From a virus: a stretch of DNA of 46,428 bases. The notes beneath the pieces are model-generated. The model made no database searches. It saw only the letters and a program-made list of their open reading frames with translations, and was not told the DNA's origin. The translations under genes were made by a program, and so were the position numbers. Position 1 is the first letter of the stretch, and each line of letters opens with the position of its first letter. Location of the stretch: IMG/VR virus record IMGVR_UViG_3300027742_000004, positions 1 to 46,428 of that record, one strand, 5' to 3'. Positions 1 to 46,428 of this stretch are shown here, piece after piece.

Positions 1-99
1 CCGCGCTGGTGCAACGCGTTCGCGTTCGGGATCGCACCGATCAGCGCGTGCGCCAAGCGCCGAGCCAGCCCTCGGTTATCTGAGTGTTTCATGGTTCAG
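1..99. repeat. Terminal overlap, identical to 46330-46428; the contig closes into a 46,329-bp circle
   Basis: Read directly: the same 99 nt (ccgcgctggtgcaacgcg...gtttcatggttcag) occur at both ends. The overlap lies inside coding sequence. Confidence 0.95.
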
Positions 100-1422: not shown

Positions 1423-1446
1423 AGGTACCTAGCATCTCGGGTACCT
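1423..1446. promoter_or_regulatory. Tandem AGGTACCT boxes, copy 1 (AGGTACCT at 1423-1430, GGGTACCT at 1439-1446)
   Basis: Intergenic, upstream of the 991..1392 gene. Same architecture as the copies at 2345, 5312, 40792 and 41095. Confidence 0.6.
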
Positions 1447-3599: not shown

Positions 3600-3947
3600 T
3601 TACAGCAGATACTCGGCGATCCACTCTTTCAGCTCGTCGGTGGTGCGAGCTTCGCGGAAACGCCGCTCTCTGGTCGCCTCGTGCTTGCGCTGAAGGTCCA
3701 GCTCGTGCGCGGCTTCCATACAGAAGTGGCACACCGTGTCACCGCGGGCGTGCGCTGCTGCGCCGACTTTGCCGGTGCAGCTCGTCGAGATACCGCTCGC
3801 GCAGTCCGGTTGTAGCGCGCGGGCCTTCAGCGCGGTGTCGCGCTTGTCAGCGTACACGTGTCCGTGGGCCTCGCAGTAACGCTTGTGCCCCCAGCGGCGG
3901 TGATACACCGCCTGCTCGCGGCACCCGTCCTTCTTGCACTGTGGCAT
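3600..3947 (-). CDS. Cys/His-rich putative zinc-binding protein
   Basis: MPQCKKDGC...YCEAHGH...CHFC. I prefer the ATG at 3947, which has GGAG 6 nt upstream. The listed start at 3959 is TTG. Confidence 0.5.
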   Translation of the reverse strand: MPQCKKDGCREQAVYHRRWGHKRYCEAHGHVYADKRDTALKARALQPDCASGISTSCTGKVGAAAHARGDTVCHFCMEAAHELDLQRKHEATRERRFREARTTDELKEWIAEYLL

Positions 3948-4500
3948 GGTCGTCTCCAATCATCTCGCGAAGTTGTGCCTCTTGGTTTGCCCGTGCGGTG
4001 TCCCATGCGGTGTCCCCTGCGGCGCCCCGTGCGGCGCCCCATGCGGCGCCCCGTGCGGCGGCCCGTGCGGCGGCCCGTGCGGCGTCCCATGCGGCGCCCC
4101 ATGCGGCGCCCCGTGCGGCGTCCCGTGCGGCGGCCCGTGCGGCGTCCCATGCGGCGTCCCGTGCGGCGTCCAGATCTTCATCTGTGGCGGTGTCATCACG
4201 TGCCGTTTCGATTGCCTTGCGTGGCCTGTTGTCGTCGGGGTATTTCGCCTCAAACAAGCGCAGCACCTGTTCAGCACACCACGCGGAAAAGTGTCGGTTC
4301 AGGCGGTCGTCCGGCATACCGTGGGACAGCACCCACAAGGCGTCATCCAAGTCGTTACTGTCCAGCACCGTCAGCAGATCAAGCGGCTCGTCGTCTGCTT
4401 TGGTTTTGCCGAGGTGCGCCAGCAGCTTTTTCCAGCCTTCTTCGCAGGGCGAGGCTGTGCGAATGCGGTTCAACGTGGTTGTCGTGTTGTATGCGGTCAT
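3847..4500 (-). CDS. Repeat protein: alpha-helical N-domain followed by 15 tetrapeptide x-A-A-[R/W] repeats
   Basis: DAARDAAWDAARAAARDAARGAAWGAAWDAARAAARAAARGAAWGAARGAAGDTAWDTAR is encoded by the 12-nt tandem repeat. The 3' end overlaps the next gene by about 100 nt, so the true C-terminus is uncertain. Confidence 0.55.
   Translation of the reverse strand: MTAYNTTTTLNRIRTASPCEEGWKKLLAHLGKTKADDEPLDLLTVLDSNDLDDALWVLSHGMPDDRLNRHFSAWCAEQVLRLFEAKYPDDNRPRKAIETARDDTATDEDLDAARDAAWDAARAAARDAARGAAWGAAWDAARAAARAAARGAAWGAARGAAGDTAWDTARANQEAQLREMIGDDHATVQEGRVPRAGGVSPPLGAQALLRGPRTRVR
3990..4169. repeat. Tandem repeat, 15 copies of a 12-nt unit (cccRtgcggYgN)
   Basis: Counted unit by unit from the sequence. 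All six frames are open across it, which produces the spurious PHG-repeat and RRTG-repeat ORFs. Confidence 0.95.
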
Positions 4501-4501
4501 G

Positions 4502-4735
4502 TCACTGAACCTTCCCAGTCTCGATCGCGTTCGCGATCTTGCGCATGTTCTCGACGATCAAGGTTTTTTCGGGGTCGTCTATGTCGTAAGGCAGCGAGCC
4601 GAGCTCGATCGCATCGTCGACAACATCGCCGCGCAGCGCCTCGGACAGCACATAAATCAGCTGCTCTTCGTTGTCGCGCAGCATATCAGCCATCTGGTCG
4701 CGCCCGATCTGGGTCACAGTGGTATAGTCGGTCAT
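4502..4735 (-). CDS. Small, strongly acidic hypothetical protein (77 aa)
   Basis: MTDYTTVTQIGRDQMADMLRDNEEQL...DIDDPEKTLIVEN. The ATG at 4735 is preceded by GGAGAC. Confidence 0.55.
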   Translation of the reverse strand: MTDYTTVTQIGRDQMADMLRDNEEQLIYVLSEALRGDVVDDAIELGSLPYDIDDPEKTLIVENMRKIANAIETGKVQ

Positions 4736-4806
4736 GTTCGTCTCCATCAGGTTGTCGAGCCTGAGTGCTCGGGATCGGGGCGGCGCGCCGCCCCTCACCG
4801 GAAAAC
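4736..4806 (-). promoter_or_regulatory. Early-operon intercistronic element, copy B
   Basis: 18-nt perfect palindrome GGGGCGGCGCGCCGCCCC at 4777-4794, GGATC at 4772-4776, 5-bp/6-nt-loop hairpin at 4756-4771, and a 17-nt block at 4741-4757 identical to 925-941. Confidence 0.6.
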
Positions 4807-5280
4807 TCAGAACGACGGGTTGCGCTTGTCGTGGTGCCCTTGAACCATGGCGAAGGTGCCGCCGCTTAGCCAGCGCGCAGATAGGCTCTTGGGGACACTT
4901 CTACTGGGCGCGTGACGGTGGAACACCGTGCCGTCGTCTGTCTTGATACGGTGCATGGACGGCGAGATGCTGGCGATTTTGCCGCACGGGCAATAGTCAC
5001 CGTTGAAACCCATGCTGACCGCGTCGCCGACCTTCGGCGCTCGAATGACGTCATACCGCGGCATGACGCGAGGGCCGGCGTCGACGGGGAGGTAAAGCTC
5101 ACCCATGAACCGACTAGCCGCGGCAGCGTAGTCCGTCGCGCTACCTATGCTGGGCATCATATCACCGCGGTGGACGATACGACCACCAGCGCGGTTTATG
5201 ACTTCTCGTTCTTCGCGGCTCGGGGTTTCTTCGGTTACTTGGACGACGTTGTGTTCGTCGTTGAGGATAATGTAGAGCAT
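4807..5280 (-). CDS. Hypothetical protein (157 aa), first gene of the early operon
   Basis: ATG at 5280 (MLYIILNDEH). The leader CAACCGAAAGAGAGACC and AGGTACCT box copy 3 lie just upstream. The N-terminal extension of the listed ORF runs into the non-coding repeat region. Confidence 0.6.
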   Translation of the reverse strand: MLYIILNDEHNVVQVTEETPSREEREVINRAGGRIVHRGDMMPSIGSATDYAAAASRFMGELYLPVDAGPRVMPRYDVIRAPKVGDAVSMGFNGDYCPCGKIASISPSMHRIKTDDGTVFHRHAPSRSVPKSLSARWLSGGTFAMVQGHHDKRNPSF

Positions 5281-5311
5281 CTGTCTGGTCTCTCTTTCGG
5301 TTGCGTATGAC

Positions 5312-5337
5312 AGGTACCTAGCACCTGTCAGGTACTC
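5312..5337. promoter_or_regulatory. Tandem AGGTACCT boxes, copy 3 (AGGTACCT at 5312-5319, AGGTACTC at 5330-5337)
   Basis: Lies immediately upstream of the first early gene. The box starts are 18 nt apart. Confidence 0.6.
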
Positions 5338-5443
5338 GTACAAGTGCTTATTTAGCAACACTCTCGATGCGCTGAAAAATGTGTCACGAGTGCTGATACA
5401 CTTTTCGGGGCGCTCAATATTGACGTTCCTGTTGCGTTCCGTT

Positions 5444-5805
5444 TTGGGACATGTCCCAAGGGGTCGGTTTTTGGTACGTGTCCCAAGCTCGTGTCCCAAG
5501 AATTTGTGTTTGGCGCCAGCTGGTTAGCGCCTCTTGGGACTTTGGGACACGAACTTTTAATAGTTTTTCGGGGAACTTAAATAGGTTAATGTTCCCCTTT
5601 TGTTCTTTTATACAAATTCTGTAATAAATTTGGGACTTTTTCGTGTCCCAAAGTCCCAAAACGCCGCAAGCCGTTGAGATCACAGCGGAAATCTTGGGAC
5701 ACGCAATCCACGGTTGAATGTCCCAAGATCGCCGCCAAAACGCGCAAGCCGTTGTAAACGCAGGCGTAATCGCTTGGGACACGGGACATTTGCCCCGTGT
5801 CCCAA
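5444..5805. repeat. Iteron-like array: 13 perfect TTGGGAC heptamers (consensus yTTGGGACACG) in both orientations around an AT-rich core
   Basis: Plus-orientation copies start at 5444, 5534, 5542, 5630, 5694 and 5774. Minus-orientation copies start at 5453, 5480, 5493, 5645, 5653, 5720 and 5799. A degenerate copy is at 5782. I found only one other copy in the rest of the window (about 18492). Confidence 0.9.
5551..5632. other. AT-rich core of the non-coding hub, with stem-loop GGGGAAC-N14-GTTCCCC (5570-5597) followed by a T-rich tract
   Basis: This is the most AT-rich stretch I noticed in an otherwise GC-rich window, and TTGGGAC repeats flank it. Confidence 0.7.
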
Positions 5806-5831
5806 ACTTTTTACAACCAGAAGGGTAGTAT

Positions 5832-6497
5832 TTGACGCTTCGCCGCGACGCGTGTAGTTTCCGCCGCATGAGCACGAGCACACCTGACACCCCGATCGAC
5901 CGCGCGAAGTTCGACGTTCACCCCAACGTCGACGCCAGCTTCACGACGCGCGTGCTGTTGCCGCGCAAACGCCGCATGGTGGACGCGTACGTGCGCACCG
6001 GATCACTGAAGGCCGCGGCAGAGGCGAGCGGCTACAGCCCCGGCACGGTCAAGAAGTACATCGAGACCGACAAGGACGTGCAGAAAGCGATCGGCGAGAT
6101 CGTCGACCAAGCCGCGATCCTGTCAGGCGTGACGCTGGAGCGCGTGCTGCAAGAGTACGCACGCATCGCCTTCGCCGACATCGGTGAGCTTGTGGACCTG
6201 TTGAAGGTCTCAGACAGCCCGGACGACGTGCTGCTGGCGCTATCTGATCTACCGTCGGACATCACCGCCGCTATCTCGGAGATCAACCTAGACCGTACGA
6301 CGAAGAGCACAGATGACGGAGACGTCGTCACGGGACGCGTCAAGATCAAGCTGCTCGACAAGAAGGGAGCGCTGCAAGACCTCGGGCGGATGCTGAGCCT
6401 GTTCAAGGACACGATCGTCGTCGAGGACACCCGCGGGTTCGGGGACCGGTTGGAACGCGCGATACAGAAAATAGAAAGGTTGGGCGATGACGAGTAG
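5832..6497 (+). CDS. terS: Terminase small subunit
   Basis: RMVDAYVRTGSLKAAAEASGYSPGTVKKYI (HTH) and ...LERVLQEYARIAFADIGELVD are typical of Terminase_2-type small subunits, and the gene lies directly upstream of terL. The start is ambiguous: TTG at 5832 (GAAGGG upstream) or ATG at 5868. Confidence 0.8.
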   Translation: MTLRRDACSFRRMSTSTPDTPIDRAKFDVHPNVDASFTTRVLLPRKRRMVDAYVRTGSLKAAAEASGYSPGTVKKYIETDKDVQKAIGEIVDQAAILSGVTLERVLQEYARIAFADIGELVDLLKVSDSPDDVLLALSDLPSDITAAISEINLDRTTKSTDDGDVVTGRVKIKLLDKKGALQDLGRMLSLFKDTIVVEDTRGFGDRLERAIQKIERLGDDE

Positions 6498-6741
6498 CCC
6501 GGGCGAACTGGTTGAAATTGAGTGGGTCGACAGCGCGTCGTACGACGCATGGCACCGCGACGACGGCGAAGAGTACGCGCTCGTGTTTTGCACGACGGTC
6601 GGCTATCTCACACGCGAGCACGCGGATCGCTTAGTAGTGGTGCAGAGCTCGAACAACGCCGAGCAGCGCGCCGGGGTGATGATAATCCCGCTAGCGTGCG
6701 TCCGACGCGTGACCGTACTAGGGCCGCAGCAGCATGGCTAA
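6487..6741 (+). CDS. Hypothetical protein (84 aa) between terS and terL
   Basis: ATG with GAAAGG upstream. It overlaps both neighbouring genes by a few nt. Confidence 0.5.
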   Translation: MTSSPGELVEIEWVDSASYDAWHRDDGEEYALVFCTTVGYLTREHADRLVVVQSSNNAEQRAGVMIIPLACVRRVTVLGPQQHG

Positions 6742-8251
6742 GCCGAGCCTGAGCTCGAAAGAGCTGGACCAGCTCGCCGATCTGGCGGCAGCTGCACGCT
6801 ACGACCCGCTGTTGTGGGCCGAGACGGCGTGGGAGTGGGGGCAGGGTGATCTGAAGGGCAAAGACATCCGCTTTTGGCAGGCCGAGATCATGGACGAGAT
6901 CGCGGAGCACCTGCAAAACCCTGAAACACGCTACACACCGCTGAAGATTTCCGTGGCGTCCGGGCACGGGATCGGCAAATCCGCAGAGATGGGCATGGTG
7001 TCGAACTGGGCGATGTCGTGCCACCGTGGCGCCCGCGTGGTTATCACTGCGAACACCGAGGGGCAGCTGCGTACGAAGACCTCGCCCGAGGTGGCGAAGT
7101 GGTTCTCGACGTCAGTGTCTGCGCCGCTGTTCGACATCGACACGCTCAGCATCAAGGCCAAGCAAGAGACGAAGGACATGGCGTGGTCGATGGACTTCAC
7201 GCCGTGGTCAGAACACAACACCGAAGCGTTCGCGGGTTTGCACAACGAGGGCCGGATCATCGTGCTGTTGATGGACGAGGCGTCCGGGATCGCGGCTAAA
7301 ATCTGGGAGGTCGCCGAGGGCGCGCTGACCGACGAGAACACGATCCTGATCTGGATCGCTTTCGGGAACCCGACGCAGAACAAGGGTGAGTTCCGCAACT
7401 GTTTCAAGCACACGATCGGCAACGACTGGAAAACCAAACAGATCGACAGCCGCACGGTCGAGGGCACGAACAAGGAATATCTGGACGGGCTGGTGCGCAA
7501 GTACGGCGAGGACAGCGACCGGATCAAGGTGCGTGTGCGCGGAATGTTCCCGTCGTCGTCCAGCCGCCAGATGATCCCGACGCATGTCGTAGACGCAGCG
7601 TACGGGCGGCACTACCCCAAGAGCAGCTATGACTTCGCCCCGGTGATCCTGACGTGCGATCCGGCGTGGACGGGGAGCGACGATCTGGTGATCGCCAAGC
7701 GGCAAGGTCTCGTGTTCGAGATACTCGACGTGATCCCGAAGAACGACAACGACATCGAGATCGCGACCAAGATCGCGCGGTACGAAGACAAGTACGACGC
7801 CGACGCGGTGTTCATCGACCTCGGTTACGGGACAGGTATCGCATCCGCGGGCAAGACATGGGGCCGCTCGTGGGAGCTGATAAACTTCGGCGCAAAGTCG
7901 CCCGAGCCCGGCTTCGCTGACATGCGCGCGTTTATGTACAATGCCGCGCAAACGTGGATGGAAGAGGGTGGGTCGATCCCGCCGGATAACGGCCTGTACG
8001 AAGAGCTGCTGTCGATCGAGACCCTGCCGGACAACAACGGGATCGTGCGTCTGAAATCGAAGGAGCAGATGCGCGAGGACGACAACACGGCGTCCCCCAA
8101 CAAGGCCGACGGGCTGGCGCTCAGTTTCGCGCGCCCGGTCGTAAAAAAGCGGCAGACCGATCGCGACGCGGAGTTGCGCAACCGGCAGGCGCTGGCGCAG
8201 GCGAGCAGCAAGTACATAAACCAGCACGGCGAGTACGACCCGCACGCCTGA
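6734..8251 (+). CDS. terL: Terminase large subunit
   Basis: Walker A-like VASGHGIGKS, Walker B LLMDEA, a C-terminal nuclease-like region, and its position next to terS and the portal. Confidence 0.9.
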   Translation: MAKPSLSSKELDQLADLAAAARYDPLLWAETAWEWGQGDLKGKDIRFWQAEIMDEIAEHLQNPETRYTPLKISVASGHGIGKSAEMGMVSNWAMSCHRGARVVITANTEGQLRTKTSPEVAKWFSTSVSAPLFDIDTLSIKAKQETKDMAWSMDFTPWSEHNTEAFAGLHNEGRIIVLLMDEASGIAAKIWEVAEGALTDENTILIWIAFGNPTQNKGEFRNCFKHTIGNDWKTKQIDSRTVEGTNKEYLDGLVRKYGEDSDRIKVRVRGMFPSSSSRQMIPTHVVDAAYGRHYPKSSYDFAPVILTCDPAWTGSDDLVIAKRQGLVFEILDVIPKNDNDIEIATKIARYEDKYDADAVFIDLGYGTGIASAGKTWGRSWELINFGAKSPEPGFADMRAFMYNAAQTWMEEGGSIPPDNGLYEELLSIETLPDNNGIVRLKSKEQMREDDNTASPNKADGLALSFARPVVKKRQTDRDAELRNRQALAQASSKYINQHGEYDPHA

Positions 8252-13357: not shown

Positions 13358-13972
13358 ATGGCCGTAGCGAGCAAAATCGACATCTGCAACATGGCCCTTG
13401 CGCACCTCGGCAAGCCCAGCATCACCAGTCTGACAGACGGCAGCCCTGAAGCACGCACGTGTGCGCGGCTGTACGACGGCGCGAGACGCGCGAGCTTGGT
13501 CAGAAGCCCGTGGACATTTGCGCGCCGTACGCGTGCGCTGTCCGTCGTGGCGGACAACCCGCTGAGCGACTTCTGGTCGACCCGGTACGATCTTCCGAAA
13601 GACATGCTGAAGATACACCGCCTGCTCGAAGACCCGTCGGACCCGATGGGCAACCATCTTCCGATCGCGTCGTATGTCGAAGAAGGCTCGGTATTCGCTA
13701 ACACGGAAGGGCTGTACCTGCTGTTCATCGTCGACAGTGAGCAGACGCAACGGTGGTCCGCGCTGTTCGACGACGCGGTCGCTTTGCAGCTGGCCGCGCG
13801 GATGGCGCCCACGCTGACGCGTCGTAAAGGTGACGTCAACGAGCTGCGCGATGCGTACGTCGACGCGATCGGGCTCGCCGCGGAGGTTGACGGGCAGCAA
13901 GAGAGCGCGACATACACATTCCACGAGGGCGGGTACGCGGACGATCGAGCCGCCGGCAGCGTCTGGGAGTAA
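13358..13972 (+). CDS. Tail tubular protein A / adaptor (T7 gp11-like)
   Basis: The N-terminus KIDICNMALAHLGKPSITSLTDGSPEARTCARLYD...W.FA is typical of podovirus gp11-like proteins. The gene precedes the gp12-like gene. Confidence 0.65.
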   Translation: MAVASKIDICNMALAHLGKPSITSLTDGSPEARTCARLYDGARRASLVRSPWTFARRTRALSVVADNPLSDFWSTRYDLPKDMLKIHRLLEDPSDPMGNHLPIASYVEEGSVFANTEGLYLLFIVDSEQTQRWSALFDDAVALQLAARMAPTLTRRKGDVNELRDAYVDAIGLAAEVDGQQESATYTFHEGGYADDRAAGSVWE

Positions 13973-13975
13973 CAC

Positions 13976-16552
13976 ATGGTCCGTATTGTCCAAGGGTCGT
14001 TGAACGGCGGCATCATCTCTGGCGGGATGTACGCCCGGACAGACACCGAGAAGTTTCAGAAGGGTCTGAAAGACGCGGTCAACGTGTTCGTCAGGCCGCA
14101 AGGCGGGGTGTCCAACCGAGCGGGCTTCGCCGGCGCCACGCGTTTCGATACGTCGAACGGCGTGGCGTCGCAGTGGCTGCTGCCCTTCTCGTTCAACACC
14201 GAACAGACCTACCACCTCGAGTTCGCCGACGCGGCGTTCCGGGTGATCCGTAGCGGCGCGTACGTGCTGGATACGACGGTCGGCGAGATCGGGATCACGG
14301 CGGTGACAACGGCTGCCGCGGCGAAGATCACTCTGACCGATCCGCTGGACGCCGCGAAGTTCCCTGTCGGGTGCCTCGCGTATCTGACAGACCCCGCGGG
14401 GTCGCACGCGCTTCACGAGGCGTACGTACGCGTGACCGGAGCAGCAGGCGCAGACCTGTCGTTCGAGGTTTTCGACGGCACCGAGCTGGACACGACTGTG
14501 GGAGCGTGGGGCGCGATCGGCGCGGGGGCCGCGCTGCAAAAGGTGTACGAAGTGGCGCACACGTACGCGCTGGCTGATCTTCCTGACGTCGCGTACGCTC
14601 AGGACGCAGACACGATGTACTTGACGCATGACTTGTACCCGCCGCGCAAGGTCGGCAGGTTCGATCACGACGACTGGTTTATCTCGGACGTCGTGTTCGC
14701 GCCCAGTGTGGCGCAGGTGCAGACGGCGACGGCGACGATCACCGCGGCAACGAAGACGAACCCGGTGGTTGTGACCGCCGCAGCGCACGGTCTGGCGGAG
14801 GGCGACGGGTTCTCGATCGCGGACGTGGCAGGCATGATCGAGATCAATAACAAGGTGTTCACAGCCGGCGCGGTAACGACCGACACGGTCGAGCTGAAAG
14901 ATATGGCAGGCGAGCCGGTGGACGGCACCGCGTACGTCGCCTACACGAGTGGCGGCGCGATCAGCTCGCCCGGCACAGCGTACAAGCTGAGCGCCGACGC
15001 CGACCCGCTGGACCTTGTGACGTACAGCTACGCCGTCGCGGCAATCGACAGCGACACTTTCGGCGAAGGGCTGCCGACCGAACTCTTCACAGTTGACAAC
15101 GATCTCTTCTACAAGGGCGGCGTGAACTACATCGGATGGCGGGCAGTGCCCGACGCGTCGCGTTACGCGGTGTATCGCATGTACGCAGGGTCGCTCGGCT
15201 ACATCGGCACCACGGTGAGCACGGTTTTCACCGACGAAAACATCACGGCGGACACAGCGACAGGCGTTCGGCTCGATCGAAATCCGTTTGCGGCAGCCGG
15301 GGATTACCCCGCGGTGGTCTCGTTTTACGAGCAACGGCTCATTTTTGCGGCGACGATCAATGATCCGCAGCTGGTGGAAGCGTCGCGCGTCGGGGACGTT
15401 GAGAATTTCTGCAACTCGTACCCGGCGCTGCCGGATGATGCGTTCCGGTTCCGTGTGCGCGACCGGCGGGTGAACCATATCCGGGCGCTGGTGCCGGCGG
15501 AGAGCTTGACGATCCTGACGAGCGGCGGCGAGTGGGAGATCGCACCGCAAGGCGACGGCGAGTATCTTCGTCCCGACAAGCGCCGGTTGTCACCGCGCAC
15601 CAACTACGGATCGTCGGCGCTGCCGCCGCTGTTTACCGGCAGCGTGGTGCTTTACATCGAGCCGTCGAAGAACGTCGTACGGGACTACCGACCGAACGAT
15701 TTCAGCACGCCGCCGGGCGATCTCACGATCGTCGCGCGCGATCTGTTCGAGGATCGCGAGATCGTGTCTTGGACGTACGCAGCGGCGCCGCACAAACTGG
15801 TTTGGGCGGCGCTGGACGACGGTACGCTGCTGTCTATGACGTACGTGCCCGAGCATGACGTATGGGCGTGGACGCGGCACGATATGGGGACTGCGAAGGT
15901 AAAGCAGGTCAGCTCGGTGAGAGAAGGGAATGACGACGTTGTCTATGCGGTCGTCGCGCGGCAGTTGGGCGGTAAAACCGTGACGCTGACCGAGCGACTG
16001 GCGCGGCGTGAAGACACCGACATCAAGCTGGCGATGTATCTGGACGCGGGATATATCGCGGACTTTGGCGGGCCTGTGTCGACGGTTCAGGGGCTGCTGC
16101 ACCTGCGCGGCGAGACGGTGACCGTGCTCGCGGACGGAGACGTGATCGAGGGTCTGGTCGTCGACCAGACAGGGACTGTCGATCTCGGGACGCGCGCGGC
16201 GACAAACATCAGCGTCGGGCTGTCGTACGAAAGCCTGATCGAGACGCTCGACGTGCAGTTCGAGATCAAGAACTACGGCTCGTCGGACGGGCGGTACAAG
16301 GCGACCGCCGAGATGTCGCTGAAAATACGACGTACACGCGGTATCGAGACGGGCACGTCGCTTGACCGGATGCACGGTAGCAAAGAGTGGACGGCTGATC
16401 TCGTCGGCGGCCCGATCCCGTTGAAGTCTGAGACGCAGCTGGTGACCGTGTCCGGCGACTGGGACCGGGACGCGACGATGTACGCGCGTCAACGAAACCC
16501 GCTGCCAATGACGATACTCAGCATCGGGCCGGACTGGGAGGTATCAGAGTGA
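13976..16552 (+). CDS. Tail tubular protein B / nozzle (T7 gp12-like)
   Basis: 858 aa. The N-terminus ...FQKGLKDAVNVFVRPQGGVSNRAGF...QWLLPFSFNTEQTYHLEF fits, as do size and synteny. Confidence 0.7.
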   Translation: MVRIVQGSLNGGIISGGMYARTDTEKFQKGLKDAVNVFVRPQGGVSNRAGFAGATRFDTSNGVASQWLLPFSFNTEQTYHLEFADAAFRVIRSGAYVLDTTVGEIGITAVTTAAAAKITLTDPLDAAKFPVGCLAYLTDPAGSHALHEAYVRVTGAAGADLSFEVFDGTELDTTVGAWGAIGAGAALQKVYEVAHTYALADLPDVAYAQDADTMYLTHDLYPPRKVGRFDHDDWFISDVVFAPSVAQVQTATATITAATKTNPVVVTAAAHGLAEGDGFSIADVAGMIEINNKVFTAGAVTTDTVELKDMAGEPVDGTAYVAYTSGGAISSPGTAYKLSADADPLDLVTYSYAVAAIDSDTFGEGLPTELFTVDNDLFYKGGVNYIGWRAVPDASRYAVYRMYAGSLGYIGTTVSTVFTDENITADTATGVRLDRNPFAAAGDYPAVVSFYEQRLIFAATINDPQLVEASRVGDVENFCNSYPALPDDAFRFRVRDRRVNHIRALVPAESLTILTSGGEWEIAPQGDGEYLRPDKRRLSPRTNYGSSALPPLFTGSVVLYIEPSKNVVRDYRPNDFSTPPGDLTIVARDLFEDREIVSWTYAAAPHKLVWAALDDGTLLSMTYVPEHDVWAWTRHDMGTAKVKQVSSVREGNDDVVYAVVARQLGGKTVTLTERLARREDTDIKLAMYLDAGYIADFGGPVSTVQGLLHLRGETVTVLADGDVIEGLVVDQTGTVDLGTRAATNISVGLSYESLIETLDVQFEIKNYGSSDGRYKATAEMSLKIRRTRGIETGTSLDRMHGSKEWTADLVGGPIPLKSETQLVTVSGDWDRDATMYARQRNPLPMTILSIGPDWEVSE

Positions 16553-19950: not shown

Positions 19951-22900
19951 ATGGCCGACGAGCGCGACGAGTATCTGAAGTGGCGCGAGGCCGACAAGGT
20001 CGAACGCGGTGCGACGACGCAGGCTGACGACTACAACGCGTGGCGCGAAACTCAGCGAGACAGCGCAGCACAGAAAGCCTTGCTAGCGATCGAGAGCGCC
20101 AAGCCTGCGCCCGGCGCGGTCGCGGCGATCGGGCGCGCGAGCGACGCGACCCAGATGGGCTACGAGCTGCCGGCAGACCTGCTGACCGACGATGCGTCGG
20201 AGCTGACCAAGCGTGTCGAGCGCAACACTCGTATGCAGCAGCTGCGCGCGTCGTCCAAGCTGGCAGAGTGGGTGGCTGAAGACCCGATCAACGCGGCGCT
20301 GGCGCAGAGTGAGCTGCGCAGCTTGTCGACTTTGGGCGGCCTGTTGCAGAGCACCGCGAAGGTCGGTGATCGTGTGACGCGCGGGTCGTTCTACAAGGTC
20401 AAGGCCGACCGCGCCGTGGCGACGCTGGATGAACTTCAGACCGTGCGCGCGGACAAAACACGATCCTTCGGCGGGATCGTTGACGATCTGAAAGATGAGA
20501 TCGACACGACGAATGTGGACGCCAACCCGCTGTACACTGTCACGAAGACGTACGCGAAAGCGTTGAGCCGCTTCGCGTCCTCGCGTCTCATGTTTGCTGG
20601 CGACGAGCAGCTCGACGCATACGAAAAAGAGCTTAGCGGCTACGTCGACAAGGCGCTCGCTGAGCGAAGCGGGTATCTTGAGAAGCTGGAACGTGACTAC
20701 GGGATGTCGGCACGTGTGGCTCGTGGTCGGCAGACCATCCAAGACATCGGCGAGCTCGAGGGTGTGGGCGCGCAGCTGTCCGGGCTCGGCGAGTTCATTG
20801 TCAACGATCCGGGCGCCTTCAGCGAGTGGATGGCAAACGTGCTGATCGACAGCTCGCCGGGGCTCGTGGCCGGTGCGGTGGCGACGCGAGTTACCGGGAG
20901 CCCGGCAGCGGGTGCGACGGCGATGGGCCTCACCTCGTACAGCATGAGCAGCAGCAGCGCGTACGACCAGTTCGTCCGCGAGGCCGGGTACGACCTGAGA
21001 GACCCCGAACAGCGCGCGGCCTTCGTGAATGACCCGGCGGCACGCCGCAAGATGAAAGATCGCGCGTTCGCGTACGGCGCGGTTGTCGGTATTATCGACG
21101 CGGCGTCGGGCGGCGTCGCCGCGAGTACGCTCGCGAAAAATGTGTACGGCGAACATATCTTGCAGGCCGTGACGCAGGCGGTGATGGGCAGCAGCGGCGA
21201 GTTGCTGGGGCAGCTGGCGTCGGGACAAGACATCAACATTATCGAAGTCGCGATTGAGGGGCTCGCTGAGTTCGCGACCGCGCCGCTGGAAGCGACGTTT
21301 GTCGGCGGGCGTTACTTGCAAAACTTGCGATCCGCGCGGCAGGATCAGCAGTTCTTCGAGGCGCTGGCGACCTCGGCGGCGGGCAGCGACATGCGCAAGA
21401 AAGTCCCGGCCAAATATCGCGAAGCCGTCGCTAAGCTGACCGCGGACGGCCCGCTCGAGACGCTGTTCGTGGATGCGCAAGGGTTGGACGAATTGTTCCA
21501 GAGCGATCCCGAGGGGGTGACCGCTGAGCAGTTTCTCTCGGCTGTCCCGAATGTTGACATCGCAGCGTTCCGCCGGGCGCTGACCGATGGGGGTGTGGTC
21601 GAGATACCGACGGCGTCGTACGCGTCTGACATCGCGGGTACGCGCTTCGACGAGCTGGTACGCGATCACCTGCGCACGAAACCGGAAAACATGAGCGCGG
21701 CGGAGCTGCGCGCGTATCGTGCGCAGCTGGAAGAGCTGTCCGCACAGGCGCAGCAGGCCGCCGAAGCCAGCGAGAGCGGGCAAACCGAGCTCGAGAAATC
21801 CGCGGAGACGGCACGCGTTGAGCTGGTGTCTGCGCTGCGCCGGGCCGGACGAGCGCCCGACATCGCTGAGCGTGAAGCACTTCAGGCGGTCGCGTTCGCG
21901 CGCACACTGTCGGCGCGTCTCGGTATCACGATGGATGCGTTCTTGCAGCGGTATCCGCTGGCGCAGGTGCAAGGGGTGCTCGAAGCGTCGGGCGGTCAGG
22001 TATCACGGGTGACCGCGGACGCGATGGCCCGCGCGCGCTCGGGCGACGTTAATGATCCTTTGGCGACGGTGTTGAGAGGCGCGGCGGAAGCTGCGGGTCT
22101 CGATCTCGCGACGGCTGAGCCGGCTGAGCTCGAGGCGGCGGTCGAGCAGGTGTACGGTCCCGCAGCGGGCCCGGTCCTGCTGAACCAGATCGGAGCGCCG
22201 ACGGTGACCGGGCTGGACGGCGCGATCACGCCGGACTTCCTGCGTAGCGACGGGTGGGGCGTGGTCACGGCGGCGCGCGGCGTGGAAGCCGACGCAGAGC
22301 AGAACGCGGCGCTCGAGGCTGAGCTGCGCGAGCGGGGTATCCAATTCAAGACGATGTCCGGCATGTACAAAGGCACGCCCGACGGAACGTCGTACATGAT
22401 CTTCGCCGACGCGGCGACCGTACGCGAGCTCGGCGCCAAGTACGGGCAGGAGAGTGTGCTCACGAACGAAGGTCTCGTCTACATGGATGGATCGCCGTCG
22501 ACCGCGCTCGACCCCGACGATCTCGCGATCGGTGACGACGCGACCGCGCGCGAGTTTTACTCGGTCATGGACGACGGTACGGCGTGGTCGGCGGGGTTCG
22601 CGGAAGAGCTGACGCAGGGTCCGGTGTATGATCGTGCGAAGATCGAAGCCCGTGCGGCGGAGCTCGCCGCAGAGATGCAGCCGCTCGCGGGGGCGCCGCG
22701 CGTCCAAGGTGCCACGGGACCGGACCCTATGCTGGTCGCGGTCGCCGAGGCGTACGCCGAGGCAAACGGCATCAGCTACCGTAGGCAGGCTGAGTTCGTG
22801 GAAGTCGATGCTGAGCGCGGCGAGCGGATCGCGGCGGCGTTCGAGGCTATGCCGGCGACGCCCGATCAGAAGTTGACGCAAGCCGCGTACAAACAGCTGA

Positions 22901-40598: not shown

Positions 40599-40760
40599 TC
40601 ACTCTTCCTGTTTGCCGTTTTTGTCTTCAGGGTAGCACCCTTTGACGATCAGGTATTCGGCGATGTCGGACATATCCCAGCCACGATCTGTCGCCTCTTT
40701 CCGCAGACGCTCGCGCGCCTCGGGTGTCAGGAAGACCTTCTGTTGCTGTCTGCTCGCCAC
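40599..40760 (-). CDS. Ribbon-helix-helix (Arc/CopG-like) small DNA-binding protein, 53 aa; below the ORF track's shortest listed length (60 aa)
   Basis: My own translation: VASRQQQKVFLTPEARERLRKEATDRGWDMSDIAEYLIVKGCYPEDKNGKQEE. It has the beta-strand, helix, G, helix pattern of RHH proteins. GTG start at 40760 with GGGGAAAG upstream. It ends 7 nt before the nuclease ATG. Confidence 0.55.
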   Translation of the reverse strand: MASRQQQKVFLTPEARERLRKEATDRGWDMSDIAEYLIVKGCYPEDKNGKQEE

Positions 40761-40791: not shown

Positions 40792-40817
40792 AAGTACCTA
40801 CGGCCTCGGAGGTACCT
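40792..40817. promoter_or_regulatory. Tandem AGGTACCT boxes, copy 4 (AAGTACCT at 40792-40799, AGGTACCT at 40810-40817), in the divergent replication control region
   Basis: Lies between the RHH gene (minus strand) and the VRR-NUC gene (plus strand). The proximal box abuts the VRR-NUC ATG at 40818 and overlaps its GGAGG. Confidence 0.6.
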
Positions 40818-41096
40818 ATGTCAACCGAAAAAGAAACAGACGTCGAAACCTTTTTGGATAAGCAGGTCGAGCGGCGTGGCGGTTTCACAGTCAAGCTGAA
40901 CCCGAAAGGCTACAAGGGCATTCCTGACCGCCTCGTCGTCCTGCCGGGGCGCATCATCTTTGTAGAACTGAAGCGCCCGAAGGGCGGCGTGCTCGCGCGT
41001 CTGCAAGCATGGTGGCTGTGCCGCTTCACCGATCTCGGGCACGAGGCTGTTTGTGTGAAGAACCGCGCCGAGGTGTTGTTGCTACTTGACGGCTAG
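40818..41096 (+). CDS. VRR-NUC domain nuclease
   Basis: ...GFTVKLNPKGYKGIPDRLVVLPGRIIFVELKRPKG... carries the PD-(D/E)XK core (D...ELK) typical of VRR-NUC. 92 aa. Confidence 0.75.
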   Translation: MSTEKETDVETFLDKQVERRGGFTVKLNPKGYKGIPDRLVVLPGRIIFVELKRPKGGVLARLQAWWLCRFTDLGHEAVCVKNRAEVLLLLDG

Positions 41097-41120
41097 GTAC
41101 CTGAGCGTGTAGGAGTACCA
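41095..41120. promoter_or_regulatory. Tandem AGGTACCT boxes, copy 5 (AGGTACCT at 41095-41102, GAGTACCA at 41113-41120)
   Basis: Overlaps the VRR-NUC stop codon and lies upstream of the 41145 gene. The box starts are 18 nt apart. Confidence 0.5.
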
Positions 41121-43291: not shown

Positions 43292-45730
43292 ATGAGTTTC
43301 AAAACTGACAACGCTGCCGCCCAGACAGCCTTCCGTCTCGCCGCCTTGCGCAACGGATTTGTGCCGCTGCCAAATCACGATAAGCGTTGTTTTCTAAAGG
43401 GTTGGAACACGCTGAACGCGGACGAAGACACGATCAAGAGCTGGGAACGGAAGCTCGTGTACCAAGCGACGGGGCTGCGCGTAGAGGGCGGCATGTGCGC
43501 GATCGACATCGACATCGACGATCAAGATTTAGTGGGTCGCATCTGGGAACGCGCCGCTGCGCAATACCCCCAGCTGCGCGAAGCCTTGATCCGGTACGGC
43601 AGCGGCGCCAAGGAAATGTGGGTCTGCCGCACGGACGAAGAGTTCAGCGTTATCTTCTCGACGTCGCACGTCAAGCCGGGCTTCGATCCCGAAAGCAGTG
43701 ACGCCCCGGCGTACCGGCTGGAAGCCTTCGGCGGCGGGCACCCGCGCCAGATCGGCAGTAGCGGCGCGCACACGATGAAGAAGGACGGGTCAGGCTTCGC
43801 GGTCGGATATACTTGGGCCGACGACGAGAGCCCCGCCGAGGTTCGGCTGGACGCGCTGCCGGTGCTGGCGAAGTCAGCTGTGCTGGCGATCGCGTCTATC
43901 GCGAGCGAAGAGCTCGCCGCTGCGCAGTGGCCGCGCGTACGACGTTCTCGTACGGGCGAGAGTGCGCTCGCCGCGGTCTATGACCTGACCCCGACAATGC
44001 GCTTCGACTGTCTCGACGGCGTGACCCGTAACCTTGAGCAGCTGAAAGACTACGCGACCACGTCGAAGGACGCGCGCTGCTCGGCCAGCTGGACGGGCGA
44101 TCCGCAGTTCGTCAACCGGACCCGGTGCCTCGTCAGCATCGACCACACGGGGACCGTGTCTGTCCTCGAGACAGCTAACTGGACACGCCACCTGCCGGCG
44201 GACGAGATCGACCGTACGCGTACGCTGTACGAGCGCACCGTCGATCTGCGGGCCAAGATGGAAGAGGTCGGGTTCACGCTGGACCCCGACGCTTTCCCCG
44301 ACGCCCCGGCGTCGTTCACGGACGTGGTCTTCAAGCTGCTCGACGAGTGGTCGTGGTGCGGCTCGCGATCCTCCCAGTGCCTGCCGATCTACCGCGACGA
44401 AGAGCTGGGCATGAACCTGACCAACCTGCGCCTGACCATGTGCCAGTTCTCGTACGAGCGTGAAGGCCCGCGCGGCGGGGTCGTGTCGATCAATCCTGTC
44501 GACGCGTGGATCAAACATAGCCAGCGGCAGGACGTCGACGGCTATCGTTTCATGCCCGACCGCCCGCCCGGTATTTTTGCGACCGACGACGTACGCGCGA
44601 TCAACAGCTACCGCGCGCCGGTACACGAGCGTGTCGAGGACGACGCCGAGCGCGAGGGGTACGTGCGTCTGTGGGAAGACTTCCTGCACCACCTGCTGCC
44701 GAACGACGACGAACGCGAGTGGTTCATGGACTGGCTGGCGCACAAGAAGCAAAACCTCACGACGCCCGGCGTCGGGATCATCATGTACGCGCGAGAGTTC
44801 GGCGCCGGGCGGGGCTCGCTGTTCGAGATCATCGGTAGCGTCTTCGGTGACAAGTACGTGAACAGCGTGTCCGCGGACATGCTCATGGGCACCTCGTCGC
44901 AGGGTCAGTACACCGACTGGCTGGCCGACGCGCTCTTCGTCACGACAGACGAGGTGCTGCCCGACGGCGAAGAGGGTACCTCTATGGCGTGGCGGCGCAA
45001 GAAAGCGTTCGAGAAATTGAAGGAACGCATCGACCCGAAGCCGCGCCGCACCGACATCATCCGCAAGACCCTCCCCAACTACCAAGACTGGGTGTACGCG
45101 TCGTTCCTGCTGGCGACGAACCACGACAACGCGATCCCGATCCCTAAAGGCGACCGGCGGCTCACCGTGCTGACAAACACCGTCGTCCCGCTGGCCCGCA
45201 AGCCCGACCTGATGCGTCGCCTGAACAACGAGCGCAACCCCGCGATGAACCCGCGGTTTGCCAGCTGCATCGCGAGCTGGTTGGACGCGCGCGACGTCAC
45301 CGGGTTCAACGCGCACGTTGCGCCAGAGTTCTCGGGTAAGGCCAAGATGCAAGAAGCCAATATCACCGAGCTGGAAGGCTTGATCGACGACACGCTGGCG
45401 TTGATCCCGTACGACTGGACGACGCTGGACGTGGTTCTGGCGCGGGTCGACAACGCGCTCGTACGCGCCAATATCAAAGACAGCTACCCTGCGTGGCGCA
45501 AGGTCGCGACCGATCGCACCAAGGCTCTGTGGCACTCGAGCGGGCGTGCCTATGTGACACCGCAGCGCACGAGCAAGGCGATGATCCTGACCCGCACCGA
45601 CGAAGCCGCCGAGACCTTCCGTGTGCTGAGCGTGGACGAGCGGTGCGCAGAGTACGCCGACATGTCGCGGCTGGACAGCACCGCGTCGGCGCGCTTGCGC
45701 GCCCTGCGCGCCGGGATGTCGGAAGTCTAA
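43292..45730 (+). CDS. Bifunctional primase-polymerase (AEP/Prim-Pol N-domain) plus SF3 (D5/P4-like) helicase
   Basis: N-terminal ...GFVPLPNHDKRCFLKGW...GMCAIDIDIDD (DxD). C-terminal P-loop-like YAREFGAGRGSLF and Walker B ALFVTTDEV. 812 aa. Confidence 0.7.
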   Translation: MSFKTDNAAAQTAFRLAALRNGFVPLPNHDKRCFLKGWNTLNADEDTIKSWERKLVYQATGLRVEGGMCAIDIDIDDQDLVGRIWERAAAQYPQLREALIRYGSGAKEMWVCRTDEEFSVIFSTSHVKPGFDPESSDAPAYRLEAFGGGHPRQIGSSGAHTMKKDGSGFAVGYTWADDESPAEVRLDALPVLAKSAVLAIASIASEELAAAQWPRVRRSRTGESALAAVYDLTPTMRFDCLDGVTRNLEQLKDYATTSKDARCSASWTGDPQFVNRTRCLVSIDHTGTVSVLETANWTRHLPADEIDRTRTLYERTVDLRAKMEEVGFTLDPDAFPDAPASFTDVVFKLLDEWSWCGSRSSQCLPIYRDEELGMNLTNLRLTMCQFSYEREGPRGGVVSINPVDAWIKHSQRQDVDGYRFMPDRPPGIFATDDVRAINSYRAPVHERVEDDAEREGYVRLWEDFLHHLLPNDDEREWFMDWLAHKKQNLTTPGVGIIMYAREFGAGRGSLFEIIGSVFGDKYVNSVSADMLMGTSSQGQYTDWLADALFVTTDEVLPDGEEGTSMAWRRKKAFEKLKERIDPKPRRTDIIRKTLPNYQDWVYASFLLATNHDNAIPIPKGDRRLTVLTNTVVPLARKPDLMRRLNNERNPAMNPRFASCIASWLDARDVTGFNAHVAPEFSGKAKMQEANITELEGLIDDTLALIPYDWTTLDVVLARVDNALVRANIKDSYPAWRKVATDRTKALWHSSGRAYVTPQRTSKAMILTRTDEAAETFRVLSVDERCAEYADMSRLDSTASARLRALRAGMSEV

Positions 45731-46158: not shown

Positions 46159-46421
46159 CACGCGTGCCCCAACTTACGAGCGCGCACGACGGCGCGGCGT
46201 TTCGCGGCTTTACGCTGGTTCGCCTTGACGCCCCGGCCCCGCTTTCCAAATGGTGCGAGGCGCCAGTGCTCGACGTTTTTCATCGGCGGCGGCGAGTTGG
46301 CGGCCAGCGTCACCGCGGCTTCAAACAGCCCGCGCTGGTGCAACGCGTTCGCGTTCGGGATCGCACCGATCAGCGCGTGCGCCAAGCGCCGAGCCAGCCC
46401 TCGGTTATCTGAGTGTTTCAT
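46158..46421 (-). CDS. Hypothetical basic protein (87 aa); its 5' end is duplicated at 1-92 by the terminal overlap
   Basis: ORF with a Lys/Arg-rich C-terminus (KRGRGVKANQRKAAKRRAVVRARK). It spans the circular junction. Confidence 0.5.
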   Translation of the reverse strand: MKHSDNRGLARRLAHALIGAIPNANALHQRGLFEAAVTLAANSPPPMKNVEHWRLAPFGKRGRGVKANQRKAAKRRAVVRARKLGHA

Positions 46422-46428
46422 GGTTCAG
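46330..46428. repeat. Second copy of the terminal overlap (identical to 1-99)
   Basis: Direct comparison of the two ends. Confidence 0.95.

What the first reader, a model, noticed from the sequence alone, without database searches (positions are those of the whole stretch)
5338..5868. AT-rich non-coding hub with 13 TTGGGAC iterons in both orientations: candidate replication origin and/or packaging site
Seen directly: about 590 nt between the divergent early (minus) and late (plus) operons carry no credible gene.

Thirteen perfect TTGGGAC heptamers (extended consensus yTTGGGACACG) lie within 362 bp. Six are in plus orientation and seven in minus. They include a perfect palindromic pair, TTGGGAC-AT-GTCCCAA, at 5444-5459. 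For a given 7-mer counted on both strands, the chance expectation in 362 bp is well below one. I found only one other copy in the remaining 46 kb.

The repeats flank an AT-rich core of about 80 bp (5551-5632) with a GGGGAAC-N14-GTTCCCC stem-loop.

There is also a higher-order repeat of roughly 60 bp (5645-5703 and 5720-5783). Each copy has GTCCCAA ... CAAAACGC(C)GCAAGCCGTTG ... CTTGGGACACG.

Established knowledge: iterons flanking an AT-rich unwinding element are the classic origin layout. Repeated sites just upstream of terS are also how terminase small subunits recognise pac or cos.

Which protein binds here is unknown. The Prim-Pol/SF3 helicase, TerS and the RHH protein are candidates.
Basis: partly seen in the sequence, partly recalled or inferred. 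Interest (0 to 1): 0.65.

Follow-up and report, generated by a model that had tools for sequence, protein, structure and literature searches.

The report
Likely phage replication origin with iterons
The repeat-filled gap upstream of the terminase genes of this marine phage is most likely its replication origin, built like the known origins of satellite elements such as SaPIs and P4; a DNA-packaging role is not excluded.

Summary
Thirteen perfect TTGGGAC copies (6 plus, 7 minus) lie in 5444-5805, where about 0.04 are expected. They flank the genome's single AT-rich minimum, 5552-5631, with GC 0.25 against a genome mean of 0.64.

The sites closest to the core are mirror-symmetric. They include a perfect 20-bp inverted repeat placed 86 bp apart.

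The window is a circularly assembled 46.3-kb podovirus related to Octadecabacter phage OANV1. Nine relatives keep the same grammar with a GGGAC core: sites point at the AT core from both sides.

More distant relatives have the same kind of module with a different heptamer in each lineage. In about ten lineages it begins in, or within 0.7 kb after, the 3' end of the primase-polymerase/SF3-helicase gene. In several of these it is separated from terS by other genes.

The window's homologue of that protein has a confidently modelled C-terminal domain with winged-helix topology. This is the layout described for SaPI origins.

My best reading is an iteron-type origin (about 0.58). A TerS pac/cos site (about 0.2) or a dual role cannot be excluded, because no raw reads were available for terminus mapping. 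It is a new member of a known kind, of moderate interest.

The parts
5281..5867 (.). Whole non-coding hub between the leftward early gene (4807-5280, minus) and terS
   Evidence: ORF list and sequence. The leftward gene product matches phrog_9742 of unknown function. No Rfam family reaches its threshold.
5306..5341 (-). Leftward early promoter, TTGTAC-N17-TAGGTA, carrying the AGGTACC/AGTACC motif. It is not part of the iteron array.
   Evidence: It is one of five intergenic CTTGAC-N17/18-TAGGTA(CC) elements. The motif pair is conserved next to the leftward gene in L001, L003, L004, L005, L035 and L039. In Mel-JY33 it stays next to terS although the iteron module lies elsewhere.
5444..5553 (.). 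Left iteron set: six TTGGGAC sites (5444+, 5453-, 5480-, 5493-, 5534+, 5542+), ending in a tandem pair that points at the AT core
   Evidence: The same '>(>)' arrangement lies left of the core in nine hubs of the lineage.
5552..5631 (.). AT-rich core, the presumed DNA-unwinding element, containing the hairpin GGGGAAC-N14-GTTCCCC (5570-5597)
   Evidence: It is the genome-wide GC minimum (0.25 against a mean of 0.638, sd 0.058) and the least stable 60-bp window. An AT-rich core at the same place is present in all relatives.
5630..5805 (.). Right iteron set: seven TTGGGAC sites (5630+, 5645-, 5653-, 5694+, 5720-, 5774+, 5799-). The tandem pair 5645-/5653- points back at the core.
   Evidence: '<<' lies right of the core in eight of the nine hubs of the lineage.
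5534..5659 (.). Perfect 20-bp inverted repeat (5534-5553 and 5640-5659) bracketing the core, able to extrude as a cruciform
   Evidence: I1, I13. The single-strand DNA fold gives -29.8 kcal/mol, z = -7.0 against shuffles.
5640..5786 (+). Two direct repeats of about 70 bp (5640-5706 and 5715-5786). Each is bounded by a minus and a plus iteron and holds CCAAAACG(C)CGCAAGCCGTTG.
   Evidence: The pairwise alignment matches in 52 of 73 columns. The inner box is not conserved in relatives.
43292..45730 (+). Primase-polymerase/SF3-type helicase (812 aa), the proposed initiator. Its C-terminal winged-helix-like domain is encoded at 45359-45727.
   Evidence: Pfam DUF5906. A family profile matches the NrS-1 phage polymerase helicase domain, PDB 6k9c, at E 1.6e-22. 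The AlphaFold2 model of residues 690-812 has pLDDT 90.6 and pTM 0.82 with a beta-alpha-alpha-alpha-beta-beta topology; the top Foldseek hits are forkhead/wHTH domains but are not significant.
5868..6497 (+). terS (209 aa, Terminase_2 family, N-terminal HTH), the rival candidate binder
   Evidence: Pfam PF03592, E 1e-15. It is 64% identical to OANV1 gp1.
6734..8251 (+). terL (505 aa)
   Evidence: It is 78-79% identical to OANV1 TerL and 46-50% identical to the TerL of epsilon15, phiV10 and related phages.

Best explanation
The array is the phage's replication origin. It is of the iteron type used by self-loading SF3-helicase initiators.

Proposed mechanism:
1. The 812-aa primase-polymerase/helicase (43292-45730) binds the yTTGGGACA iterons through its C-terminal winged-helix-like domain.
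2. Two oligomers assemble on the two opposed iteron sets.
3. They melt the AT-rich core between them (5552-5631).
4. The helicase loads itself, and its own primase-polymerase domain primes synthesis, probably in both directions.

What is shown: the array, its symmetry, the unique AT minimum, conservation of the grammar, its linkage to the primase-helicase gene in relatives, and the helicase homology.

What is inferred: that this protein binds these sites, that melting happens there, and that replication starts there.

The leftward early promoter at 5306-5341 is a separate element that shares the same gap.
For: 1. Statistics and symmetry. There are 13 sites where 0.04 are expected. Their positions are mirrored about 5596.5, and a perfect 20-bp inverted repeat brackets the core.

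2. The core is the only strongly AT-rich, easily melted stretch in 46 kb.

3. Conservation. Nine hubs of the same lineage (TerL 63-79% identical where measured) hold 7-14 GGGAC copies where about 1 is expected. In all nine a site points at the AT core from the left, and in eight a tandem pair points back from the right. The spacers between sites diverge.

4. Linkage to the helicase gene. An unbiased k-mer cluster scan of loci fetched through primase-polymerase homology finds the same grammar with a different heptamer in each lineage. It coincides with the local AT minimum and starts inside, or within 0.7 kb after, the 3' end of that gene:
- CCCGGGTCC in Mel-JY33 and Nsp-JY18
- AAGTGCC in L006
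- TGTTGA in L013, L015 and L017
- GGTGTTGTG in L012
- CAAGGGA in L014
- ACTACAC in L016
- CCCATCCC in L018
- CACGGAC in L022
- ACTGTAC in L027
- TGCAACA in L028
.

5. Separation from terS. In Mel-JY33/Nsp-JY18, L027 and L028 the module is cut off from terS by 2-5 leftward genes. In L006, L014 and L016 it is 1.1-2.4 kb away.

6. A second array. L013, L015, L017 and L032 carry a separate repeat array, all in one direction, directly before terS. That leaves the inverted-iteron module free for another job.

7. The initiator has the right build. It has an SF3-type helicase (profile against PDB 6k9c, E 1.6e-22) followed by a confidently modelled domain with winged-helix topology.

8. Match to the published SaPI origin. 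There, 6-12 short iterons lie just 3' of rep, with an AT-rich centre and at least two iterons on each side pointing in opposite directions. They are read by a C-terminal winged-helix domain of a self-loading helicase, and SaPI5 has a fused Pri-Rep (PMC9371898).
Against: - In the window and its whole lineage the module is not next to the primase-helicase gene. It is 5.9 kb away around the circle, with only a terminator-like hairpin after the gene. It is always 0.06-0.7 kb upstream of terS.
- terS follows the primase-helicase gene in all these genomes, so adjacency to one often implies nearness to the other.
- The winged-helix assignment is not statistically supported (best Foldseek E about 0.9).
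- Neither the primase-helicase C-terminus nor TerS tracks the iteron difference among L012, L013 and L017.
- There is no experimental or read-level evidence of initiation here. GC skew turns near 3-5 kb, but that also follows gene orientation.
Confidence: 0.58

Rival explanations
1. The array is a packaging recognition site (pac or cos). TerS oligomers bind the heptamers on both sides, and TerL cuts in or near the AT-rich core. This resembles P1 pac (hexamers on both sides of the cut) or SPP1 pacL-pacC-pacR.
For: - The array ends 63 nt before the terS start in the window. It lies within 0.7 kb upstream of terS in all nine hubs of the lineage.
- TerS belongs to the Terminase_2 (SPP1 G1P-type) family and has an N-terminal HTH. 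That HTH is nearly identical in OANV1, which shares the GGGAC core.
- In every relative the module lies upstream of terS on the circular map.
Against: - In Mel-JY33/Nsp-JY18, L027 and L028 the module abuts or overlaps the primase-helicase gene and is separated from terS by leftward genes with their own promoter region.
- Several relatives have a separate one-directional repeat array directly before terS.
- L012 and L017 have TerS N-termini that are 90% identical but different iterons, whereas L013 and L017 share an iteron at 73%. This is weak evidence.
- The site spacing is irregular (8 to 88 bp), which does not fit DNA wrapping around a TerS ring.
Confidence: 0.2
2. The array has a dual role. 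The same module serves as origin and as packaging signal. In this lineage it moved next to terS because TerS, or a TerS-helicase complex, also uses it.
For: This is the only lineage in which the module has left the primase-helicase gene, and it then sits immediately before terS in every member. The window has no separate repeat array before or inside terS.
Against: No direct evidence exists. Inserting or inverting an early gene block explains the new position just as well. L003, L009, L026, L035 and L039 have an extra ORF between the module and terS.
Confidence: 0.1
3. The array is a set of operators for a phage transcription factor (such as the RHH-like protein) that controls the divergent early and late promoters, perhaps by DNA looping.
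For: In the window the array lies between divergently transcribed operons. The palindrome at 5444-5459 looks like a dimer operator. A possible promoter lies in the AT core.
Against: - In L026 the module is flanked by same-strand genes on both sides.
- In Mel-JY33, L018 and others it lies at the end of a gene, away from the divergent promoters. The leftward promoter motif stays by terS without it.
- The promoters of this phage carry a different motif, AGGTACC.
- No regulator was identified among the early proteins.
Confidence: 0.05
4. The array is a plasmid-type partition centromere, with heptad repeats bound by a ParB- or omega-like protein.
For: Short repeats in both orientations resemble centromeres bound by RHH proteins. 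This comparison rests on my own knowledge, not on a test here.
Against: No ParA or ParB-like gene was found among the proteins scanned. The genome looks like a lytic podovirus. The AT core flanked by opposed sites is not a centromere feature.
Confidence: 0.02

Closest known systems
SaPI (Staphylococcus aureus pathogenicity island) replication origins with Rep / Pri-Rep self-loading helicases
   Same: Both have 6-12 short iterons in two sets around a central AT-rich region. Both have at least two iterons on each side pointing in opposite directions. In both, the initiator is an SF3-type helicase with a C-terminal DNA-binding domain, fused to a primase in SaPI5 (PMC9371898). In about ten related phage lineages the module also lies just 3' of the initiator gene.
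   Different: In the window the module is 5.9 kb from the initiator gene. The iterons are 7-10 nt rather than 5-6. There is no detectable sequence homology to the SaPI Rep C-terminal domain. The host element is a 46-kb lytic-type podovirus, not a satellite.
Satellite phage P4 ori and crr with the alpha primase-helicase (from my own knowledge)
   Same: P4 alpha is a primase plus SF3 helicase plus a C-terminal winged-helix origin-binding domain. It binds octamer iterons found in both orientations. The crr element is made of two direct repeats that each carry iterons, like the two 70-bp repeats at 5640-5786.
   Different: P4 splits its iterons between two loci several kb apart. The iteron sequence is unrelated. 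The P4 alpha origin-binding domain did not appear among the Foldseek hits.
Polyomavirus and papillomavirus core origins (large T antigen GAGGC pentamers; E1 binding sites) (from my own knowledge)
   Same: Short sites in inverted pairs next to an AT-rich tract direct head-to-head loading of two SF3 helicase hexamers.
   Different: Those are eukaryotic viruses with far fewer sites and a different origin-binding fold.
Phage P1 pac site and SPP1 pacL-pacC-pacR (from my own knowledge)
   Same: Repeated short sites lie on both sides of a central region, close to the terminase genes. The SPP1 TerS belongs to the same Pfam family as the window's TerS.
   Different: Those sites lie in or at the terminase genes and are defined by mapped cleavage. 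Here no termini are known, and related modules lie away from terS.
Phage lambda ori (four iterons plus an AT-rich region inside gene O) (from my own knowledge)
   Same: Iterons lie next to an AT-rich unwinding element, physically tied to the initiator gene. This parallels the relatives whose iterons start inside the primase-helicase gene.
   Different: [quoted passage not shown] Its initiator is not a helicase and recruits the host DnaB.

Membership tests
Iteron-type origin of a self-loading SF3-helicase initiator (SaPI/P4 type) | Multiple copies of a short (5-8 nt) iteron, far above chance | tested here: met
   There are 13 perfect heptamers where 0.04 are expected.
Iteron-type origin of a self-loading SF3-helicase initiator (SaPI/P4 type) | Two iteron sets flank a central AT-rich region, with at least two on each side pointing in opposite directions | tested here: met
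   5534+/5542+ and 5645-/5653- bracket the core 5552-5631 (GC 0.25). The pattern recurs in nine hubs, with the right-hand pair in eight of them.
Iteron-type origin of a self-loading SF3-helicase initiator (SaPI/P4 type) | The origin lies immediately downstream of the initiator gene | tested here: not met
   In the window the module is 5.9 kb from the end of the gene at 45730. The feature is met in about ten other lineages of the same phage group.
Iteron-type origin of a self-loading SF3-helicase initiator (SaPI/P4 type) | The element encodes an SF3-type helicase initiator | tested here: met
   Pfam DUF5906. The family profile matches the NrS-1 polymerase helicase domain, PDB 6k9c, at E 1.6e-22.
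Iteron-type origin of a self-loading SF3-helicase initiator (SaPI/P4 type) | The initiator has a C-terminal winged-helix origin-binding domain | tested here: inconclusive
   The model of residues 690-812 has pLDDT 90.6 and a winged-helix-like topology. The top Foldseek hits are forkhead/wHTH-DNA complexes, but E is about 1 and TM 0.4-0.5.
Iteron-type origin of a self-loading SF3-helicase initiator (SaPI/P4 type) | Specific initiator binding, melting of the AT region, and initiation of replication at the site | not testable with these tools
   This needs EMSA or footprinting, permanganate probing, and marker-frequency or plasmid-replication assays.
Terminase recognition site (pac/cos) | Virion DNA ends, or the first headful cut, map at the site | not testable with these tools
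   Only assembled contigs of two public runs were available, with no raw reads. The window is a circular assembly with a 99-bp overlap.
Terminase recognition site (pac/cos) | The site is linked to terS across relatives | tested here: inconclusive
   It lies within 0.7 kb of terS in the GGGAC lineage. It is separated from terS by 1-2.4 kb of genes in Mel-JY33/Nsp-JY18, L006, L014, L016, L027 and L028.
Terminase recognition site (pac/cos) | The site sequence co-varies with the TerS DNA-binding domain | tested here: inconclusive
   L012 and L017 have TerS N-termini 90% identical but different iterons. L013 and L017 are 73% identical and share an iteron. All larger iteron changes coincide with changes in both TerS and the primase-helicase.
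Operator array of divergent promoters | The array lies between, and overlaps, the regulated promoters in all relatives | tested here: not met
   L026 has same-strand genes on both sides. In Mel-JY33, L018 and L028 the module lies at a gene's 3' end, away from the divergent promoter region.

The most novel reading that the evidence does not exclude
In this lineage one iteron module has been taken over for two jobs. The primase-helicase and the small terminase would both read the same GGGAC array, coupling the start of replication to the start of packaging. That would explain why the module left the helicase gene and settled directly before terS.
Probability: 0.1. Interest if true: 0.6.

Novelty: new member of a known kind. 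Interest (0 to 1): 0.4.

Why it matters
If the reading is right, it locates the origin and names the initiator for a widespread, almost unstudied group of marine and freshwater podoviruses. The group includes the cultured Octadecabacter phage OANV1 and two cyanophages.

It also gives a simple rule for finding origins in metagenomic relatives: look for opposed heptamers around the genome's AT minimum, usually at the 3' end of the primase-helicase gene.

The many lineage-specific iterons, each paired with one protein family, form a natural data set for studying how initiator specificity evolves. The mechanism itself is already well known from SaPIs, P4 and small eukaryotic DNA viruses, so this extends known biology rather than changing it.

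Tried and rejected
- Terminus mapping. Two public runs hold the sequence, but only as assembled contigs. One contig breaks in a coding tandem repeat near 4127, not in the hub.
- A single-protein TerS scan of viral contigs found nothing. The TerS alignment scan found only the same lineage.
- A search for natural recombinants (same TerS with a different primase-helicase, or the reverse) found none. The L012/L013/L017 comparison was not decisive.
- The CGCAAGCCGTTG box inside the 70-bp repeats was considered as a TerS site. It is not conserved in relatives, so I dropped it.
- No repeat array lies inside or just before terS in the window.
- Rfam matches were all far below their thresholds.
- Foldseek of both C-terminal models gave no significant hit.
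- Pfam and PHROGs found no further DNA-binding protein among the early genes.
- Literature searches for the packaging mode of epsilon15- or BPP-1-like terminases, and for the two cyanophages, found nothing usable. The OANV1 paper says only that its ORF numbering was started at terS, and gives no termini.
- GC skew was judged uninformative because it follows gene orientation.
- L024 (primase-helicase 51% identical) shows no module within 9 kb downstream; its terS end was not retrieved.
Full report
WHAT IS THERE

The window is a complete, circularly assembled phage genome. Its first 99 bases repeat at its end, so the unique length is 46,329 bp and the window ends are arbitrary.

It is colinear with Octadecabacter Antarctic BD virus 1 (OANV1, MW805363), a cultured podovirus. 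TerL is 78-79% identical, TerS 64% and the primase-polymerase 67%. TerL is 46-50% identical to those of epsilon15, phiV10 and related phages.

The finding lies in the 587-nt gap between a leftward early gene (4807-5280) and terS (5868-6497).

CHECKING THE OBSERVATION

Local composition predicts 0.04 copies in the 362 bp they span.

Two more copies lie elsewhere, at 18118 and 18492. Both are within chance.

The extended consensus is yTTGGGACA(c/t)(g/t).

The palindrome at 5444-5459, the GGGGAAC-N14-GTTCCCC hairpin at 5570-5597 and the higher-order direct repeat are all real. The repeat spans 5640-5706 and 5715-5786 and matches in 52 of 73 aligned columns.

- The three sites nearest the core on each side mirror each other exactly about position 5596.5. 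In addition, 5534-5553 is the perfect reverse complement of 5640-5659.
- The core 5552-5631 is the AT minimum of the whole genome. Its GC is 0.25 against a mean of 0.638 (sd 0.058), and the next lowest window is 0.41. It also holds the least stable 60-bp duplex.

THE GAP IS COMPOSITE

Its left end holds a sigma-70-like promoter for the leftward operon: TTGTAC-N17-TAGGTA at 5341-5313 on the minus strand. It is built around a different motif, AGGTACC. That motif marks five intergenic promoter-like sites in the genome, with 21 AGGTACY hits where 3 are expected. The heptamer array is a separate element.

CLOSE RELATIVES

Scans of viral contigs with TerL, TerS and primase-polymerase alignments, plus exact-protein look-ups, gave nine hubs of the same lineage: the window, L001, L003, L004, L005, L009, L026, L035 and L039.

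Each holds 7-14 copies of GGGAC where about one is expected. In all nine, a site (usually a tandem pair) points at an AT-rich core from the left. In eight of the nine a tandem pair points back from the right. A GGGAC-NN-GTCCC palindrome sits further left in six of them (window, L001, L003, L004, L035, L039) and in the partial hub of L002. The spacers between sites and the core sequence itself diverge.

The array is therefore a selected feature.

DISTANT RELATIVES

I ran an unbiased scan for clustered strand-symmetric k-mers on loci fetched through primase-polymerase homology. It found the same grammar with a different heptamer in each lineage. In each case it coincides with the local AT minimum and begins inside, or within 0.7 kb after, the 3' end of the primase-polymerase gene:
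- CCCGGGTCC in the cyanophages Mel-JY33 and Nsp-JY18
- AAGTGCC in L006
- TGTTGA in L013, L015 and L017
- GGTGTTGTG in L012
- CAAGGGA in L014
- ACTACAC in L016
- CCCATCCC in L018
- CACGGAC in L022
- ACTGTAC in L027
- TGCAACA in L028
.

In Mel-JY33/Nsp-JY18, L027 and L028 the module is separated from terS by two to five leftward genes. The short divergent gap before terS then keeps only the AGGTAC-type promoter motif.

In L026 the module lies between genes of the same strand.

So the module can be separated both from terS and from the divergent promoters. Its most constant neighbour is the primase-helicase gene. The window's lineage is the exception: a block of early genes, 5.9 kb in the window, lies between that gene and the module.

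A SECOND ARRAY IN SOME RELATIVES

L013, L015, L017 and L032 carry a second array made of direct repeats that all face one way. It lies between the inverted-iteron module and terS. That is where a TerS recognition site would be expected, so packaging and the inverted-iteron module appear to be distinct functions there. L032's TerS is 44% identical to the window's.

The window has no such second array, so a shared role cannot be excluded for it.

THE CANDIDATE INITIATOR

The 812-aa protein at 43292-45730 matches Pfam DUF5906. A profile of its family matches the helicase domain of the NrS-1 phage polymerase (PDB 6k9c) at E 1.6e-22.

The N-terminal part shows primase-polymerase-like motifs, read directly from the sequence: a DxD motif in AIDIDIDD and a conserved GAHT. 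Only 2 of 20 homologues reach even a weak Pfam Prim-Pol match.

Residues 690-812 fold in AlphaFold2 with pLDDT 90.6 and pTM 0.82. The fold is a beta-alpha-alpha-alpha-beta-beta unit followed by helices, which is a winged-helix topology. The top Foldseek hits are forkhead and wHTH domains bound to DNA. None is significant, with E about 1 and TM 0.4-0.5. I count this as suggestive only.

COMPARISON WITH KNOWN SYSTEMS

The layout matches the published description of SaPI origins. Those have 6-12 short iterons just downstream of rep, an AT-rich centre, and at least two iterons on each side pointing in opposite directions. They are read by the C-terminal winged-helix domain of a self-loading helicase, and two hexamers are thought to load on either side of the AT region. 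SaPI5 has a fused primase-Rep (PMC9371898).

From my own knowledge, P4 alpha with its ori and crr, and the polyomavirus and papillomavirus origins, work on the same principle.

One defining SaPI feature, the origin immediately 3' of the initiator gene, is not met in the window, although relatives meet it. I therefore say that it works like such an origin and file it as a new member of that kind, with that caveat.

RIVALS

- Packaging site. This stays alive because the module lies directly before terS throughout the window's lineage, TerS has an HTH, and no termini could be mapped: only assembled contigs were available.
- Co-variation. The test among L012, L013 and L017 was not decisive. It leaned slightly against TerS, because the TerS N-termini of L012 and L017 are 90% identical although their iterons differ.
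- Operator array. Its positions in relatives argue against this.
- Partition centromere. No partition genes were found among the proteins scanned.

My estimates are: origin 0.58, TerS site 0.20, dual role 0.10, operator 0.05, centromere 0.02, and the small remainder for anything else.

VERDICT

The 'packaging' half is unresolved.

The element is a new member of a known kind of origin, in an understudied phage group. OANV1 is cultured, so the question can be tested directly.

Noticed in passing
window 1423-1446, 2363-2370, 5312-5336, 40793-40817, 41095-41118: A second motif family. AGGTACC(T) palindromes give 21 AGGTACY hits where 3 are expected. They form five intergenic sigma-70-like promoters, CTTGAC-N17/18-TAGGTA(CC), each with another (A)GTACC in the spacer. 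The motif pair is conserved in relatives, including Mel-JY33. These are probably the early promoters and perhaps also a regulator's site.
   Followed up: partly
window 40599-40760 (minus): A 53-aa ORF, MASRQQQKVFLTPEARERLRKEATDRGW..., that looks like a ribbon-helix-helix protein. It lies beside the second divergent region (40.6-41.1 kb), which carries AGGTACC promoters. It has no Pfam or PHROG match.
   Followed up: partly
L013 6080-6290; L015 10986-11125; L017 2800-2930; L032 2375-2585: Some relatives have a second array of direct repeats that all face one way, placed between the inverted-iteron module and terS: GGTGCGT x5, CTGGTGC x7, GGTGCCAGC x7 and GCGCGACAAGC x6. This is a candidate TerS recognition site. 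The L015 contig ends inside its array.
   Followed up: partly
window 5372-5386; L001 48008-48075; L003 1022-1082; L004 2735-2770; L035 1565-1617: A third conserved motif, AATGCGCTGAGA / GCGCTGAAAAATG, lies between the leftward promoter and the first iterons in all hubs of the lineage. It is often present in both orientations. Its function is unknown.
   Followed up: no
window 5600-5632 and aligned cores of L003, L009, L035: The right part of the AT core is semi-conserved (TTTGTACAAATTTAT...TATAGG) and resembles the phage's own promoter pattern. Several relatives also have a GGTACC there. A rightward promoter may sit inside the core, reading towards terS.
   Followed up: no
L005 2790-2990 (same contig as L010): This hub carries four copies of AAGTGCC/GGCACTT beside its GGGAC sites. 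AAGTGCC is the iteron of the distant lineage L006. It may be a trace of an origin exchange, or a second binder.
   Followed up: no
window 19951-30495 (plus): A single 3514-aa ORF. Its OANV1 counterpart (2986 aa) is annotated as a BPP-1 bbp10-like lysin. The Mel-JY33 counterpart is about 4000 aa.
   Followed up: no
window 3847-4500 (minus): An early gene with an Imm5-like domain (PF21805) and a run of AARDAAWGAA-type tandem repeats. The public assembly of the source run breaks its contig inside this repeat, near 4127.
   Followed up: partly
window 1-99 and 46330-46428: An exact 99-bp terminal overlap, typical of an assembler's circular contig. The true genome is 46,329 bp, and the window ends say nothing about the physical termini.
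   Followed up: yes
L003 1494-1934; L009 about 13720-14130; L035/L039 2085-2468; L026 19543-20223: Several members of the lineage have an extra ORF of 127-226 aa between the module and terS. The window lacks it. The ORFs of L003 and L035 are not obviously alike.
   Followed up: no
window 5655-5941: A 2025 public run (X2) holds only two 151-nt pieces matching the queried stretch (4300-7300), at about 99% identity. They cover the right arm of the module and the start of terS. This is probably low coverage of a near-identical phage.
   Followed up: no
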